Shown one piece after another: positions 9,001-54,000 of a DNA stretch of 64,000 nucleotides; position 1 is the stretch's first letter; the number at the start of each line of letters is the position of its first letter. This DNA comes from Callorhinchus milii (lineage: Eukaryota), in NCBI RefSeq assembly GCF_018977255.1, contig NW_024704752.1, forward strand, positions 6,076,001-6,140,000, written 5' to 3'. Made by a program: the position numbers.

Positions 9001-12000
9001 TAATTCCTTCTGCTCAAATGGCACAAAATGTGTTTACACATGGTTTGGCACATAGTTCAAATAGAGCCCAATGCTAAACAGAAACATTATATAAATTAAC
9101 CATTGTATTTGTAATTGAGTAATGAATGCAATCTGGTCATGCATCTCATTTTTAAAGGGTGGCTGGGAAGTTTGGTCTTGCAAAAATGTTGCTGTTGAGT
9201 AATAATGGTAATAATCCTTGAGACTTCTCAAGCCACTTCACAGAATATATTGTAAAGTGGCTTGATTTATGTATTTGAGGACAAAAAGCATTCAACGCTT
9301 TGCCATTGATTAAAACCGACTGCATTAAAAACTGCATTATTCCAGTATTGTACAGATTGAAGGCTTCTTGTTTTTGCCTGAGTAACAACCGAATGTAAAG
9401 TCAGATGTACAAGCACTCCAAAACGATAGGGGGAAGAGAAAGGCAGACTCAGCCACAAATTGTCCCAACCAGCTTGGATTGGAACAAAATCCTGGTTGTT
9501 GCATTTTATAATCATTTTAAAATCGACTCTGAGATGGATTTGGGGACATTGTAGAGGACATTGGCCTCTGCTTGACATGAGTGGGGTCACAGAGCATGAA
9601 GATTTTTTTACAACAACAGCTTGCATTTATATAGCGATGCTCACCCATGGGTAGCATCCCAGAGTGCTTGACAATGGCAGAGTACACCGCAGAACTGAGG
9701 GTAGTGGGGAGAGGAAGGTCTTCAGGTATGACATGAAGATGGAGAAGGAGGGAACGAGGAGGAGGGATAAGAGGAAGCATGTTCCAGAGTTTCAGGGCGT
9801 AATGCCTGAAAGCACGGCCACCGATGGTTTATTGGCTGCTGCTTCGTTTTCATTCAAATGAACTCAGGGAAACAAAGCGAAGATCCAACAAATGGCAACA
9901 TCTCCGCTTTAAAAAAAGCACAGGCTGCGGTTCCACATTGGGAACGAGGGAATTCTCTTCCCATCGGTTGTGCTCAAAGAGGTTTTTGGCATGGTATGAG
10001 ACTTTTGAAACATCAACACGAACAAATGTTTCCCACTGGCTCTTAAATTCCACTGGGTCTCCCCTAATTATCGAGAAGCGGTCTTGGCAAATTCAGCTAC
10101 GTGTGCAGTTTTCAAAACAATTCTCTCCAATTCTTTACACCTGTTTTATCTCTGCATATATTAACCCCCGAGCATTGCATAGTCAGTCCCAGCACATGCA
10201 GACATGCATTACTGACTCTAGCTTCAAGATGTTTGACAATGCCCCCCACTGGATGAAGATGAGAAAACAACATAGTCAACCCAGAGGGATAGTCTGTTAC
10301 CCTAGGCTGACATTTCTTGTCCAAACAGAGGCTTGTGTCTTCCATCGTTATCATCTGATATCAGGCTGTGCCAGACTTGTCTGAGTTCTTAAAGGTGGCC
10401 TTGGAGAGCCAACAAAGATGGGAGCTATACTGCAATGGTGGTTCCCAAGACCACCACTGTCCTTACTGATAAGCTACAACATGTTTATCGGGCGTAGTGT
10501 TTAGAGCACTCACCTTGCAAACGAGAGGACCTGGGTTCGACTCCCAGGTGGGGCGAAACCTTAGGCAAGTTGCCTTGCTCCATCGTCTCTGTTTATCTAG
10601 CAGTGAGTAGAAACTGAGTGCGTTAGTCAATTGGTGGATTGCTTTTCCAGGGGTAATAATCCTTTCAAAAAAAAATATATGTATATTTAGTCACTCAATC
10701 CATGACTATTTGTGCGATGCTGGTGCGCAGTGAGATGTCTTTGAGTCAGTTGTCCAGGGAATTTGGGGAGCCTGGTTAGCACGAAACGTCATACAAAACC
10801 TTCTTATTCATTGAATGAAAGCATTTTCCATTCCAAAAGACAGCATCATTCTCTGAATGTTCCCATAGGGATTTATATCTCAGCAATTCATTTCCGATAT
10901 GCTGCTGGTCTTAATAATAATAATAATCCTTGCATTTGATACAGAGTCTTATCACGTCGCTGTCACGTCTCAAAATACTTAACAGGATATTCACAGTGAT
11001 TTGATTGTGTATTTTGTGGGTGAAACTTAATTGTGCATCAGTGTCCCACAAACAGTGGTGGATTGAGTGACCAAATTTATTTATTTATTTCCACCAAGTT
11101 TTACATACCACCAACAATACTGTGCTCCCCCAGCACTGAAATGGGGTGTCAGCCTAGACTGGGACCTCAAGTTTCAACACAGGGGTTTGAATCCACAACC
11201 ATCTGACCCCAAAGAAAGAGAATACTACTAATTGAACCCAGTTGATATCCTTAAGGCTAAGGTCACAGACAGGCAGGCAGGCAGACAGACAGACACACAC
11301 ACAAACACACAAATCTCATCGCATATCGGAAAAATAATACCACCATAATCCAATTATGCTCTTGATGAAATACATTTTAAAAATTAAAAATAAACACTTA
11401 TGAAAATAGAGTCCTTTTGTCCCTAGGCTTCTGTGCTGCTTCATCCCTTAATGGTTTAAATTCCTAAATATAGAACAATTGATACCAGAAAACGAGATAC
11501 AAAGCTGTAATTAATCAGGGGTTGAGATTACATCCTGATCCCTGGGAGGAAAGATCAAGCGGTTAAGGAACATCATCTCAACTCTGAGATTACGTCACAG
11601 CCTCTACCTTACACTGTGGCTTCTATTATTAGACAAAGAATAGTGATCAAATTGCAAAAATTACAATACTTATTGATTCAGGTGAAAATTTGGGAATGTG
11701 GCATTTTTCAGACTGCTCCAGAATGTCCGGCAGAATGGAACAATATAAAAAGGATCTCCTGCAAACTTATCAAACAAATAGCATCCAGTAGATTGCAGAG
11801 TAATTCCATACACATATATGATTTAGAGGAACGGATGATTGGGAGTATACTACAAGGTGTGACATAATAGCAGAAGAATCTTCCTTGTTCTTTCATCGCA
11901 CTGTGCTCTGCCTCCCTGGAATACACACGAGGATTCAGAAAAGTGAAAACCATCCCTGAATATTATACGGTCCTAATCCCAATATGGTTCTATTATACGG

Positions 12001-51000: not shown

Positions 51001-54000
51001 TGCTGTAAACCAATTGAGAAATATAATGGATTAACGAGGAATCGCTACCTCTAGCAGACATTATAATTATTATGCCATGTAATTGAATAAATATTTCAGT
51101 GTGGCAGAAGAGACCAAGACAATAATACCATGAATAATACCATCTTGTAAAAGTAATGGACCTCATTACTGAATTTGGAGTTATAGACGGAAGGCCAAAA
51201 TAATAGACAGCCATGGAAACATTTCTGGAATGCAAATATTATCATTGCCAAACCCAACATGACACAATCTATAACAGCCCCTCAAGTATTAGGTAATCGA
51301 CTGCAGGTTATCAAAGTCATTACTCTTGGTTGCGTACACATCACTGCACGTCGAGAACACAATACTTACCATGCTCCAGTAGCCACCACTGACAATAGAG
51401 CAAGCAAAACACAAACCTAACATTTGAGCACTATGAGATTGGGTGGTACAGTGGTTTACTGATTGGCTCTTTATCCTTGTGACTAAGCTTTGCCCAGATT
51501 GATGGGGTGACAGTCTTTCCTACTTGCTGGGTAAAGTCTGAGTTGACCAGATTTCAACCCAATTACTCAGGGAAGTGAACCCATAGTGCAAATCTCTTCA
51601 CAATACGTTGTTTAAATCAGCAGCATCACTCCTGAGAGGCCATCAGGATGGCCAATATGGACAGTGCAAAATTCACACAGGTGCAGAAGGCACTCCACGA
51701 AGGTGTTCTGTTGGGCGTAGAGTAGACGGAGCATTTACTTTGCACTACTGAATGCTCAACACTCACTGAGACACAAAGTGATCAATTTGCTTGAGTTGCA
51801 AGCTGATGTATATCTAGCGAATCCCCACAGGATCTCTGTTCAGATGCTGATCACATGACGGTCCCGCAGCCCAGCAGAGGATCAGTTTTGTGGCCAGAGT
51901 TACACAGGATCAGTCTCGGGCACAGGCCTGTCACAATTATCCACACAAGCAAATTAGACCCATTGAAGTGTCCTATTGAACCTGTCCCAGTTAATGTCCA
52001 CACAGGGATTCTGGAAAGAATTAGAAACTGGAACCGTTGCTGTCTTTCCCCTCCATTGCACAGGGACACTGAGGCTAATGTTAGTGTCCTTACCGACACT
52101 GATAATTATTAGTTAATTATTACTATTAATGGTTATTTTTAACATATAACATTTTGTACAAATGATGGTTGTTGGTAACCTCAATGGCAATATGGCCAAG
52201 ATGTTATTGTGCCTGGCAGAGCACAGCAGCTGAATTAACTTTAGTAAATGAAGGTCATTAACTGAAGGTACTTTAAGGTTCTTATTCTTTTCAACTGTCT
52301 GCATGTTAATTCAGCTTCTGTCGCACTATTGGGATCAGTACATTTTCTGAGCTGGTACTGCCATCAGTTCTCATTGTTTGAACAAAAATATTCCAATCAA
52401 CACCAGCGATAATAAAAAAACAGCTAGGCTCAAAGGGGTAGTTTAGCCATATTAGAGATTTACAAGCAGTCTTGGTTATTGAGCAACTGAGAAGTTGCTT
52501 CTAAACATTCCCCCTCATCTTTCCCACCCCCCACCTCAGCTAAGTTGTAATATTTCTTCACATCTTTCTCAGGACAGAAAGAATAAATGTTCTTCAGCCT
52601 GATAGCTGTAAGGGTCTTGTCAAGCTCAAAAGTTCATCATAACATTAATAATACTTAGTTAATTTAGAACCTTATTATGTCATCAAAACAAAGTATTTGA
52701 CAGGATTTACCTAAAAAAACAAGCATAGTTCCTATAATTATTGGTGTACCTGCGACTGTTAAGACAATTCAGATATGGTTTAACAAGATACCTGGGGCAC
52801 AAAATATCCACCTCCTGCAGAAAGTAGTTACTTTGGGAAGTTCAAACATAGTAACATCCATTCATGTGCAACGTGGTAGTGATATTGGTCTGGCTGACCA
52901 ACACTGAACACCACTTAGAAACTACCTCCACGGAGTGATCTAAACTGCAATAATAATAATAAATAATAATATGATATACATGAGTCCAAAATCTATGTTC
53001 AAAATCCCCTTTTAATGGCAATAACAACTTGCATTATTTAGTGCCCTTTACGTAGGGCAGCACCTTGGAGTGCTGAGTACTTTAACACCAGACTGGGCAA
53101 AAAGGGGAGGTGACCATAGACTCGGTTGAAGAGAAAAGTCACCAGATGCGATCTAAACAAGGGCAAAGAAGGGACACGGAGGAGGGACTGAGGCATGGAG
53201 TTCCAGAGGTTGTGGCTGAAGGCATTGCTACGGATGATGGAACTGAAGTGTCGTGTGAATGGAATAGGTACAGGAGTGGCAACACCTCCTTAAAGAGTGG
53301 AAGAGGCGACAGTTCTCCATTAGAAACTGCTTACAAACATTGTGTCACTGCCAGCAGCCTCTGCTTCCCACAGCTATTAAAATATTAACCTGTGACAAAG
53401 CTTGTCAGCAGAAATTGCAGGAATATCAAGCAAAGTACGATGGGAAGTAAGGAAAATAATACTATCACAGAGAAGCCAACTGTGTAAACTTCGGCAGAGC
53501 TGTGCAAGGCTGATGTGTCCCTTGACACGGTTTAATGTCTCACAGTAATGGAATGTTGCATCTCTGGTGGAATTAATGACAGTGGATTGCTTAGAAAATT
53601 AAAACACTGTCAGAGGCTCATTTTGAAGGAAGTCGGGTTAATTTTAGCAAGATGGCTCTTTTAAAACTGTCACCGTCCCTTCACAATGCCATCTTGCCCT
53701 CGGAAAGCTTCTCTTGGCTGAAGTTTATCAGCGCAACGGTGGAGATCAAAATGAAGCGTTCTCCCTGAATTCTTTGCCATACTGTGTATTACGCTAATTC
53801 ACAGATGATGCACAGGGGACGTTCTCATTGAGGAGTCATTACGTGAGTGACAAGCAGACAATAAATACAAAGGGGAGCCGAGAGTATTCGTTCAAAATCA
53901 ACTAAATTATGGGCAACAAATAATTCTCACAACAGATTAACACAAAGGTCATGATTTGTTTGATGGTGCAACAAAGCAACGCATCTATGTCTAGAAATTA

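What the first reader, a model, noticed from the sequence alone, without database searches (positions are those of the whole stretch)
11885..51115. Recurrent ~100-bp inverted copies of nearby unique DNA: four independent events in 40 kb
Seen: four unrelated pairs (11885/12915, 31328/31807, 43939/44617, 49225/51022). Each has ~90-110 bp arms in opposite orientation and spacers of ~0.37-0.93 kb, with divergence from near-identical to clearly old. The pairs share no sequence with each other or with the SINE/LINE families, and I see no outer TSDs. Inference: an ongoing mechanism copies ~100 bp from within 1 kb, inverted, into a break, for example polymerase-theta end joining or replication template switching. 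The narrow size and distance range at this density is what is unusual. If the region is transcribed, each pair would also form an intronic dsRNA stem.
Basis: partly seen in the sequence, partly recalled or inferred. Interest (0 to 1): 0.72.

Follow-up and report, generated by a model that had tools for sequence, protein, structure and literature searches.

The report
Four local inverted ~100-bp duplications
Four stretches of about 100 bases in this chimaera-like (elephant-shark-type) DNA each have a reversed copy a few hundred bases away; they look like scars of a known DNA-copying error rather than jumping genes, and whether they are unusually frequent cannot be judged from one window.

Summary
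All four inverted pairs are real and far beyond chance. Pair 4 needs a correction. Its left arm is split by a later LINE insertion (49281-50430, 5-bp target duplication), so the true spacer is 545 bp, not ~1.7 kb.

Arms are 81-105 nt (core alignments) and spacers 361-932 bp. Arm divergence is 3%, 11%, 11% and 21%. In self-comparison each arm matches only its partner. Every non-family repeat pair at E<1e-5 is inverted and local.

- No target-site duplications, transposase remnants or shared termini were found.
- Pair 1, the youngest, encloses a much older SINE fragment and has short re-copies at two arm boundaries.
- Pair 2's left arm sits at the centre of what would otherwise be a perfect 18-nt palindrome.

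These features favour transposon-independent, templated inverted insertion: template switching or fold-back synthesis at a break. That kind is known, although the tracts and distances here are larger than usually reported.

The LINE and SINE content points to a holocephalan (Callorhinchus-like) genome, which is reported to be poor in DNA transposons.

Genome-wide copy number, empty orthologous sites and genome-wide density could not be checked. The MITE and micro-inversion rivals, and the claim of unusual density, therefore stay open. Four inverted against one direct pair is not statistically significant.

The parts
11885..11982 (+). p1 left arm (98 nt); probably the inserted copy
   Evidence: 95 of 98 bases identical to the reverse complement of 12915-13019.
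11991..12006 (+). Exact 16-nt re-copy of 11961-11976, just inside the p1 spacer at the inner end of the left arm
12283..12406 (-). Old SINE fragment inside the p1 spacer
   Evidence: 19.7% from the in-window consensus; best identity to any other copy is 73%.
12915..13019 (-). p1 right arm (105 nt); probably the source
13021..13029 (+). 9-nt direct re-copy of 13008-13016, just outside the outer end of the p1 right arm
31303..31311 (+). Left half of the inverted 9-mer that brackets the p2 left arm
   Evidence: P=0.0006 against 5000 random segments.
31316..31442 (+). p2 left arm (core 31340-31442); probably the inserted copy
31443..31451 (+). Right half of the inverted 9-mer that brackets the p2 left arm
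31804..31908 (-). p2 right arm (core 31804-31897); probably the source
43934..44029 (+). p3 left arm
   Evidence: 76 of 96 identical.
44617..44719 (-). p3 right arm
49242..49280 (+). p4 left arm, outer half
   Evidence: 97% identity to 51065-51103.
49281..50430 (+). 5'-truncated LINE inserted into the p4 left arm after the arm formed; TAATT duplicated at 49276-49280 and 50431-50435
   Evidence: Best protein hits are to Callorhinchus milii.
50431..50477 (+). p4 left arm, inner half
   Evidence: 83% identity to 51023-51069.
50486..50703 (.). Hairpin-shaped repeat inside the p4 spacer, with a second copy at about 8893-9110
   Evidence: own arms 39 of 56 identical.
51023..51103 (-). p4 right arm, uninterrupted
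21882..21933 (.). Short palindrome (25-nt arms, 2-nt loop) inside a SINE copy; a small-scale inverted-copy event that can be polarised by the SINE consensus

Best explanation
The four pairs are independent, transposon-free local inverted duplications.

In each event, a DNA end or a nascent strand used sequence 0.36-0.93 kb away on the same chromosome as a template, in the opposite orientation. About 100 nt was copied and then rejoined. This is template switching at a replication fork, or fold-back (snap-back) synthesis at a resected double-strand break.

What is shown:
- The inverted homology itself, its locality, the single partner per arm in the window, and the spread of ages.
- The LINE insertion is later than the p4 arm.
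- The SINE in the p1 spacer is older than the arm duplication.

What is inferred:
- The left arm is the inserted copy in p1 (re-copies at its inner end) and in p2 (insertion at the centre of an 18-nt palindrome).
- The copying mechanism, and the absence of selection.

The polymerase or pathway is not determined.
For: 1. Self-BLAST at E<1e-5 gave 532 distinct repeat pairs, 6 of them with arms of median depth 1. All 6 are inverted and local: p1, p2, p3, the two halves of p4, and one palindrome.

2. Family (SINE-type) pairs within 3 kb show no orientation bias. One search lists 25 inverted and 21 direct pairs. Removing p1, p2, p3, the inner p4 half and the 21882 palindrome leaves 20 against 21.

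3. p1 arms differ at 3 of 98 sites. The SINE fragment inside the p1 spacer is 19.7% from the in-window consensus, and at best 73% identical to any other copy. Young SINE copies in the same window are 95-98% alike. The spacer is therefore older than the duplication.

4. p1 has an exact 16-nt re-copy at the inner end of the left arm. It also has a 9-nt re-copy at the outer end of the right arm.

5. p2's left arm is bracketed by a perfect inverted 9-mer (P=0.0006 per test, 9 tests).

6. No target-site duplication was found, exact or degenerate. At p1's sharp boundaries the flanks are CC and AA.

7. Pfam found no transposase or other domain in 12 open frames taken from within or overlapping the elements. 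Of the window's 32 frames of >=110 aa, 30 were scanned, and the only hit was RVT_1 in the LINE.

8. A short inverted-copy event inside a SINE copy, readable against the SINE consensus, shows this kind of mutation in the window.

9. The LINE's best protein hits are Callorhinchus milii at 70-79% identity. The SINE has a tRNA-Ala head, as described for CmiSINEs (PMC5499810, passages). The elephant shark is described as 'particularly poor in DNA transposons' (PMC4350176, passages).
Against: - No outgroup or second genome copy was available. Neither an empty site nor genome-wide single-copy status is shown.
- No clear microhomology was seen at the junctions I inspected (my reading).
- The tracts (about 100 nt) and distances (0.4-0.9 kb) are larger than in the literature I read. 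Human template-switch events there are mostly tens of bp, filtered to <=250 bp between switch points, with the longest at 90-318 bp (bioRxiv 10.1101/2021.11.26.470150, passages). Yeast fold-back insertions are mostly 5-34 bp (PMC11724301, abstract).
- The polarity clues in p1 and p2 were found post hoc. p3 and p4 have none.
- The target-duplication test is weak. It found no significant duplication for 6 of 6 long SINE copies, and it could not separate the LINE's known 5-bp duplication from chance.
- A hairpin-shaped repeat family exists in the window, so palindromic mobile-looking DNA is present in this genome.
- n=4, and 4 inverted against 1 direct is not significant.
Confidence: 0.6

Rival explanations
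1. Each pair is a non-autonomous DNA transposon (MITE-like) of a different family. The element would be about 0.55-1.1 kb long with about 100-bp terminal inverted repeats, and arms plus spacer would have been inserted together.
For: - The architecture fits: inverted arms flanking 0.36-0.93 kb.
- One copy per family in 64 kb is what a moderate genome-wide copy number would give.
- A hairpin-shaped repeat with two copies exists in the window.
- Short target duplications (2-5 bp) in the three older pairs cannot be excluded.
Against: - No target duplication of any length at the sharp ends of the youngest pair.
- No shared terminal motif among the four pairs.
- No transposase domain in any of the frames scanned.
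- The p1 spacer holds a SINE fragment far older than the arm similarity.
- p2's left arm alone looks like the inserted piece.
- The likely host lineage is reported to be poor in DNA transposons (PMC4350176, passages).
Confidence: 0.15
2. Each pair marks a micro-inversion of the spacer (0.36-0.93 kb). It would have been made by breaks staggered by about 100 nt at one end, whose fill-in leaves inverted duplications flanking the inverted segment.
For: The final architecture is identical (arm, segment, inverted arm) and no target duplication is expected. This model was proposed for 17 of 29 Drosophila inversions that have inverted duplications of non-repetitive sequence at their breakpoints (PMC1885836, abstract and passages).
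Against: - That model was described for large chromosomal inversions. I read no report of it at sub-kilobase scale.
- It does not predict the palindrome halves on both sides of p2's left arm.
- It does not predict the re-copies at the p1 boundaries.
Confidence: 0.12
3. The pairs lie inside retroelement insertions. For example, a LINE inserted with 5' inversion (twin priming; recalled, not read here) and an overlap between the inverted and direct parts.
For: The window is dense in LINE and SINE sequence (58 SINE-profile hits). p2's right arm abuts another repeat copy that starts at 31908.
Against: - Arms and spacers have no other copy in the window, apart from the p1 SINE and the p4 hairpin repeat.
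- No RT or endonuclease domain in frames from the elements.
- The repeat right of p2 shows no LINE-type 3' end in this copy.
- The p1 spacer contains an old SINE fragment, which a single LINE insertion would not carry.
- By my rough estimate, about 0.66 chance coincidences between the 16 arm boundaries and repeat boundaries are expected.
Confidence: 0.05
4. The pairs are kept by selection as hairpin-RNA (endo-siRNA or long-hairpin) loci. Their size range would then reflect function, not mutation.
For: Predicted arm duplexes are very stable. Expressed, structurally stable inverted duplicates are reported in mammals (PMC5398296, abstract and passages).
Against: - Arm identity decays from 97% to 79% with indels, as expected for neutral DNA.
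- One arm tolerated a 1.15-kb LINE insertion.
- Rfam found only three tRNA-type matches, none in the pairs.
- No expression data were available.
Confidence: 0.05

Closest known systems
Short-range template-switch mutations (four-point model; Loytynoja and Goldman 2017, PMC5453318; Loytynoja 2022, bioRxiv 10.1101/2021.11.26.470150)
   Same: An inverted copy of nearby sequence is written into the nascent strand, which creates hairpin-capable repeats without any mobile element. The SINE-internal palindrome at 21882-21933 is a typical small example.
   Different: Reported human events are mostly tens of bp. They were filtered to <=250 bp between switch points, and the longest were 90-318 bp (passages). 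Here the tracts are about 100 nt and the source lies 0.36-0.93 kb away.
Fold-back (snap-back) templated inverted insertions at double-strand breaks (Yu et al. 2024, PMC11724301; synthesis-dependent MMEJ and polymerase-theta literature seen only as a listing)
   Same: A resected 3' end folds back on its own strand, copies it, and the other end is then captured. This leaves a local inverted duplication and no target duplication.
   Different: The yeast events are mostly 5-34 bp and lie next to the break (abstract). The microhomologies that define this mechanism were not evident here.
'Inverted duplicates' catalogued genome-wide (Chen et al. 2017, PMC5398296; Chen et al. 2011, PMC3176832, abstract seen only in the listing)
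   Same: Two reverse-complementary arms separated by a spacer of up to 1 kb, in non-repetitive DNA. They were counted in human, mouse and 19 other vertebrates.
   Different: 80% of the human examples have arms of <=36 nt. In non-repetitive DNA they are about as frequent as mirror controls (passages). The pairs here are long and far beyond the mirror control. No chondrichthyan was in the list of species I read.
MITEs and other non-autonomous DNA transposons with terminal inverted repeats
   Same: Inverted arms flank a short non-coding interior.
   Different: No target duplications, no shared termini, no second copies in the window, and an interior older than the arms in p1.
Staggered-break inversions with flanking inverted duplications (Ranz et al. 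2007, PMC1885836)
   Same: Inverted duplications of formerly unique sequence flank a segment, with no repeat involved.
   Different: That model was described for large chromosomal inversions. Inversion of the spacer could not be tested here.

Membership tests
MITE / TIR DNA transposon | Target-site duplication directly flanking the terminal inverted repeats | tested here: not met
   No exact or degenerate duplication beyond chance (P 0.07-0.98). At p1's sharp ends the flanks are CC and AA. Caveat: power is low for 2-5-bp duplications in the older pairs.
MITE / TIR DNA transposon | Many copies genome-wide with conserved ends | not testable with these tools
   Only the 64-kb window could be searched, and each arm matches only its partner there. 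No eukaryotic genome collection was available.
MITE / TIR DNA transposon | Relationship to a transposase-encoding element or a superfamily terminal motif | tested here: not met
   No Pfam domain in 12 frames from within or overlapping the elements. 30 of the window's 32 frames of >=110 aa were scanned, and only RVT_1 was found. The four termini share no motif.
MITE / TIR DNA transposon | Arms and interior inserted together, so the interior is not older than the insertion | tested here: not met
   For p1 the arms are 3.1% apart while the internal SINE fragment is 19.7% from consensus and at most 73% identical to any other copy. For p4 the internal hairpin repeat has its own arms only 39 of 56 identical. 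This was not testable for p2 and p3.
Template-switch / fold-back templated inverted insertion | The insert is the reverse complement of nearby sequence on the same chromosome | tested here: met
   All four pairs, with sources 361-932 bp away.
Template-switch / fold-back templated inverted insertion | Ancestral state lacks one arm only (empty site for the copy) | not testable with these tools
   No outgroup sequence. The indirect evidence is that removing 31312-31442 restores a perfect 18-nt palindrome, and that re-copies lie at the inner end of p1's left arm.
Template-switch / fold-back templated inverted insertion | Microhomology at the switch or priming points | tested here: inconclusive
   Reading the p1 and p2 junctions showed no clear microhomology. 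Later substitutions could hide 1-4-nt matches in the older pairs.
Staggered-break micro-inversion | The segment between the arms is inverted relative to the ancestor | not testable with these tools
   This needs an orthologous locus. No repeat copy spans an arm/spacer boundary that could serve as an internal orientation marker.
LINE twin-priming insertion | Arms, spacer and downstream flank are one LINE sequence that ends in the LINE 3' tail | tested here: not met
   No RT or EN domain in frames from the elements. There are no in-window LINE copies of the arms. The repeat right of p2 shows no LINE-type 3' end in this copy. No LINE consensus library was available, so the test is incomplete.

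The most novel reading that the evidence does not exclude
A distinct germline mutational process in this lineage writes inverted copies with a fixed tract length of about 100 nt, taken from 0.3-1 kb ahead on the same chromosome.

One possible mechanism is a stalled leading strand that copies the single-stranded gap of the lagging-strand template until it meets the previous Okazaki fragment, and then returns. The tract length would then report the size of that gap, and the distance would report how far the fork is uncoupled.

The process would have acted repeatedly over roughly 10-110 million years, with the copy on the same side of the source in the two pairs that can be polarised. It would seed long intronic or intergenic hairpins at about one per 10-15 kb.
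Probability: 0.18. Interest if true: 0.7.

Novelty: new member of a known kind. Interest (0 to 1): 0.4.

Why it matters
If the size class holds genome-wide (about 100-nt tracts, sources under 1 kb away, inverted far more often than direct), it would extend template-switch mutagenesis from tens of bases to about a hundred. It would also give a sequence read-out of a replication or repair intermediate, and a steady supply of long hairpin-forming loci in a vertebrate genome with few DNA transposons.

If it does not hold, these are four ordinary inverted duplicates in a repeat-rich, slowly decaying region.

The p4 correction is a practical point for scans. Insertions nested in one arm hide the real geometry of inverted repeats.

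Tried and rejected
1. Whole-element palindromes. nhmmer aligned p2, p3 and p4 to their own reverse complement end to end. The spacer halves, however, score no better than shuffled sequence (18-28 against null means of 20-26). Only the arms are inverted repeats.

2. A 9-mer (TTCCTATTT) near both ends of p2 looked like a target duplication. It lies 10-20 nt from the arm end and inside another repeat copy, and it disappears when the refined boundaries are used.

3. A positive control for the target-duplication scan failed. 6 of 6 long SINE copies gave nothing above chance, and the LINE's 5-bp duplication could not be told from chance. 'No TSD' therefore carries weight only for duplications of about 7 nt or more, and mainly for p1.

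4. Divergence from my in-window SINE consensus overstates age, because the consensus mixes subfamilies. Copies that are 10% from the consensus are 95-98% identical to each other. I re-tested the age of the p1-spacer SINE by its best pairwise identity.

5. I first read the coincidence of p2's right arm end with the start of the 31908 repeat as meaningful. Pairwise homology always ends at the same aligned point in both copies. By my rough estimate, about 0.66 such coincidences are expected over the 16 arm boundaries.

6. Rfam at gathering scores found only three tRNA-type matches, which are SINE heads.

7. A protein search with the 193-aa frame 9803-10384 found nothing.

8. No gene model was built, so the transcription status and strand of the region are unknown.

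Supplementary files were not opened. Tables of inverted-duplicate counts by arm length (PMC5398296) could bear on whether the density here is unusual.

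
Full report
**What the window is.** The window has 64,000 bases, no N and about 41% G+C.

It is packed with a tRNA-Ala-headed SINE. A profile built from the window finds 58 copies or fragments. Two of the heads are called tRNA-Ala genes by ARAGORN and Rfam.

A 5'-truncated LINE at 49281-50430 carries a reverse-transcriptase domain. 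Its best protein matches are three Callorhinchus milii entries at 70-79% identity, and the next best are teleost proteins at 52-54%.

CmiSINEs are described as having a tRNA-Ala head and an L2-type tail, with 302,861 copies in C. milii (PMC5499810, passages). I therefore take the window for a holocephalan (elephant-shark-like) genome, not human. That lineage is described as 'particularly poor in DNA transposons' (PMC4350176, passages).

**The observation.** All four pairs exist.

| Pair | Left arm | Right arm | Identity | Spacer |
|---|---|---|---|---|
| p1 | 11885-11982 | 12915-13019 | 95/98, plus a 7-nt indel | 932 |
| p2 | 31340-31442 | 31804-31897 | 84/94 | 361 |
| p3 | 43934-44029 | 44617-44719 | 76/96 | 587 |
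| p4 | 49242-49280 + 50431-50477 | 51023-51103 | 72/81 | 545 |

- p2 extends to 31316/31908 if a 14-nt indel is allowed.
The uninterrupted right arm matches two separated stretches, with TAATT present at both junctions. What lies between them is the LINE.
- So the p4 left arm was split by a later LINE insertion, and the original spacer was 545 bp.

The E-values (1.8e-35 to 3.7e-06) and a mirror-sequence control (one low-complexity hit at E<1e-3) exclude chance.

**How special the pairs are within the window.**
- Self-BLAST at E<1e-5 gave 532 distinct repeat pairs. Only 6 have arms that occur just twice, and all 6 are inverted and local: p1, p2, p3, the two halves of p4, and one small palindrome.
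- With relaxed settings (E<1), 12 local low-copy rows appear. Five are the inverted rows that make up the four pairs, five are short self-palindromes, and two are direct.
- Of the two direct rows, only 1515-1646/1752-1886 is convincing (66% identity, E=6e-07).
- Three distant low-copy pairs also appear. Two of them touch the elements. The start of the p4 spacer matches 8915-9059, and the flank right of p2 matches 58020-58287.
- SINE-type pairs within 3 kb show no orientation bias (20 inverted, 21 direct, after removing the five non-family rows).

The inverted, local, roughly 100-nt class does stand out. Even so, 4 inverted against 1 direct of comparable size is not significant (one-sided binomial 0.19, my arithmetic).

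Arms of 40 nt at 80% identity or better were detectable, since the 47-nt half of p4 was found at E=3e-05. Longer arms would have been obvious. The 81-105-nt range is therefore not a detection artefact for the younger pairs.

**Transposon or not.**
- I found no target-site duplication, exact or degenerate.
- This test is weak. It found nothing above chance for 6 of 6 long SINE copies, and it could not separate the LINE's 5-bp duplication from chance.
- It carries weight mainly for p1, whose ends are sharp and young. There the flanks are CC and AA, which rules out any duplication at the alignment boundary.
- The four termini share no motif.
- No frame from within or overlapping the elements has a Pfam domain (12 frames). 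Of the window's 32 frames of >=110 aa, 30 were scanned and only the LINE's RVT_1 was found.

The strongest argument concerns age. p1's arms differ at 3 of 98 sites, all transitions. Its spacer contains a SINE fragment (12283-12406) that is 19.7% from the in-window consensus.

My consensus mixes subfamilies, so I checked pairwise identities as well. This fragment is at best 73% identical to any other copy (median 67%). Young copies in the same window are 95-98% alike. The spacer DNA is therefore much older than the arm duplication.

That is expected if about 100 nt was copied across pre-existing DNA. A transposon reading needs a recently mobile element that carries an ancient SINE fragment. The alternative is long-term homogenisation of 98-nt arms by gene conversion, which I cannot exclude.

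In p4 the spacer holds a hairpin-shaped repeat (about 50486-50703, second copy about 8893-9110). Its own arms are only 39 of 56 identical, which is less than the outer arms.

**Junction features.**
- *p1.* The last 16 nt before the final six bases of the left arm (11961-11976) recur exactly at 11991-12006, just inside the spacer. A 9-mer at the outer end of the right arm (13008-13016) recurs at 13021-13029, just outside it.
- Such partial re-copies at tract ends are what stuttering templated synthesis would leave. They are not a defined signature of one pathway. My reading that the left arm is the copy is an inference.
- *p2.* The left arm (31316-31442) is bracketed by ACAGGACTT (31303-31311) and its exact reverse complement (31443-31451). 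Deleting 31312-31442 would leave a perfect 18-nt palindrome.
- Among 5,000 random segments of the same length, 0.06% had a bracket this long. I ran 9 such tests, and the result depends on the extended boundary.
- I read this as insertion of the inverted copy at a break in the centre of a palindrome. That again makes the left arm the copy. Neither the transposon model nor the inversion model predicts it.
- *p3 and p4.* Neither shows such a feature.
- I saw no clear microhomology at the p1 and p2 junctions.

**A small-scale event in the same window.** At 21882-21933 a SINE copy contains a palindrome with 25-nt arms and a 2-nt loop. Alignment to the SINE consensus shows that part of the SINE is replaced by the reverse complement of the adjacent SINE tail. 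This is a classical short-range template-switch event, polarised by the family consensus.

**Ages.**
- Kimura distances between arms are 0.032 (p1), 0.116 (p2), 0.121 (p4) and 0.246 (p3).
- From PMC5499810, average divergences of 12.6-17.2% correspond to waves about 100-160 Ma ago. I derived a rate of about 1.1e-9 per site per year from these figures.
- With that rate the events date to roughly 14, 53, 55 and 112 My. This is a rough inference, and the paper itself gives an alternative rate about six times slower.
- The order for p4 is consistent: the arm formed first, and the LINE inserted later.

**Mechanism and rivals.** My best reading (0.6) is transposon-independent templated inverted insertion, by replication template switching or by fold-back synthesis at a resected break.

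Both mechanisms are established at smaller scale:
- Human template-switch events are mostly tens of bp, with the longest at 90-318 bp (bioRxiv 10.1101/2021.11.26.470150 and PMC5453318, passages).
- Yeast fold-back insertions are mostly 5-34 bp (PMC11724301, abstract).
- 'Inverted duplicates' with spacers up to 1 kb have been counted in 21 vertebrate genomes. However, 80% of the human ones have arms of <=36 nt, and in non-repetitive DNA they are about as frequent as mirror controls (PMC5398296, passages).

The rivals are:
- MITE-like transposons (0.15).
- Micro-inversions made by staggered breaks, as proposed for Drosophila inversions (PMC1885836, passages) (0.12).
- Retroelement-internal structures such as LINE twin priming, which I recall but did not read here (0.05).
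- Selected hairpin-RNA loci (0.05).

The arms would form very stable duplexes if transcribed (-94 to -174 kcal/mol, against -21 to -37 for shuffled arms). Transcription itself was not assessed.

**What stays open.** Genome-wide copy number of the arms, empty sites in related species, the orientation of the spacers in an ancestor, and the genome-wide density and inverted-to-direct ratio all remain unknown. No eukaryotic DNA collection was available and supplementary tables were closed. I cannot say whether four such pairs in 40 kb is unusual.

**Verdict.**
- The pairs are new members of a known kind, namely local inverted duplications made by templated copying.
- The regular tract length and distance are the only potentially new aspect. 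They rest on n=4.

Noticed in passing
window 21882-21933: Palindrome with 25-nt arms and a 2-nt loop inside a SINE copy. Part of the SINE is replaced by the reverse complement of the adjacent SINE tail, so this is a short-range template-switch event that the family consensus polarises.
   Followed up: yes
window 50486-50703 and about 8893-9110: A hairpin-shaped repeat family with two copies about 68% alike. One lies in the p4 spacer next to the left arm, and the other is partial and lies next to a SINE. It may be a MITE-like or other palindromic interspersed element.
   Followed up: partly
window 2-270, 8360-8492, 47072-47400: Three SINE copies are 95-98% identical to each other, while most copies are 70-85% alike. 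They are either a young subfamily or copies spread by duplication.
   Followed up: no
window 43695-43766 and 61166-61237 (minus strand): Two tRNA-Ala(TGC) calls by ARAGORN and Rfam (57 and 67 bits) are the heads of full-length SINE copies, not necessarily tRNA genes.
   Followed up: partly
window 31908-32178 and 58020-58287: A two-copy repeat (66% identity over about 280 nt) starts exactly where p2's right arm ends. The 58-kb copy continues further right. The family is not identified, and the coincidence with the arm end is probably chance.
   Followed up: partly
window 1515-1646 / 1752-1886: The only convincing local direct duplication of otherwise low-copy DNA (137 nt aligned, 66% identity, 105 nt apart).
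   Followed up: no
window 56893-56974: Hairpin in low-copy DNA with 29-nt arms (83% complementary) and a 24-nt loop. Self-match E=6e-07.
   Followed up: no
window 2855-3427, 9803-10384, 37869-38570, 40868-41419: Open frames of 183-233 aa with no Pfam match. By my rough estimate such lengths are unexpected by chance. 9803-10384 also found no protein homologue. 37766-38138 and 40807-41178 are 76% identical direct copies, so they probably belong to an unclassified repeat.
   Followed up: partly
window 34976-35086: Tandem duplication with a 54-nt period, 2.1 copies and 80% matches. It is also the only hit in the mirror control.
   Followed up: no
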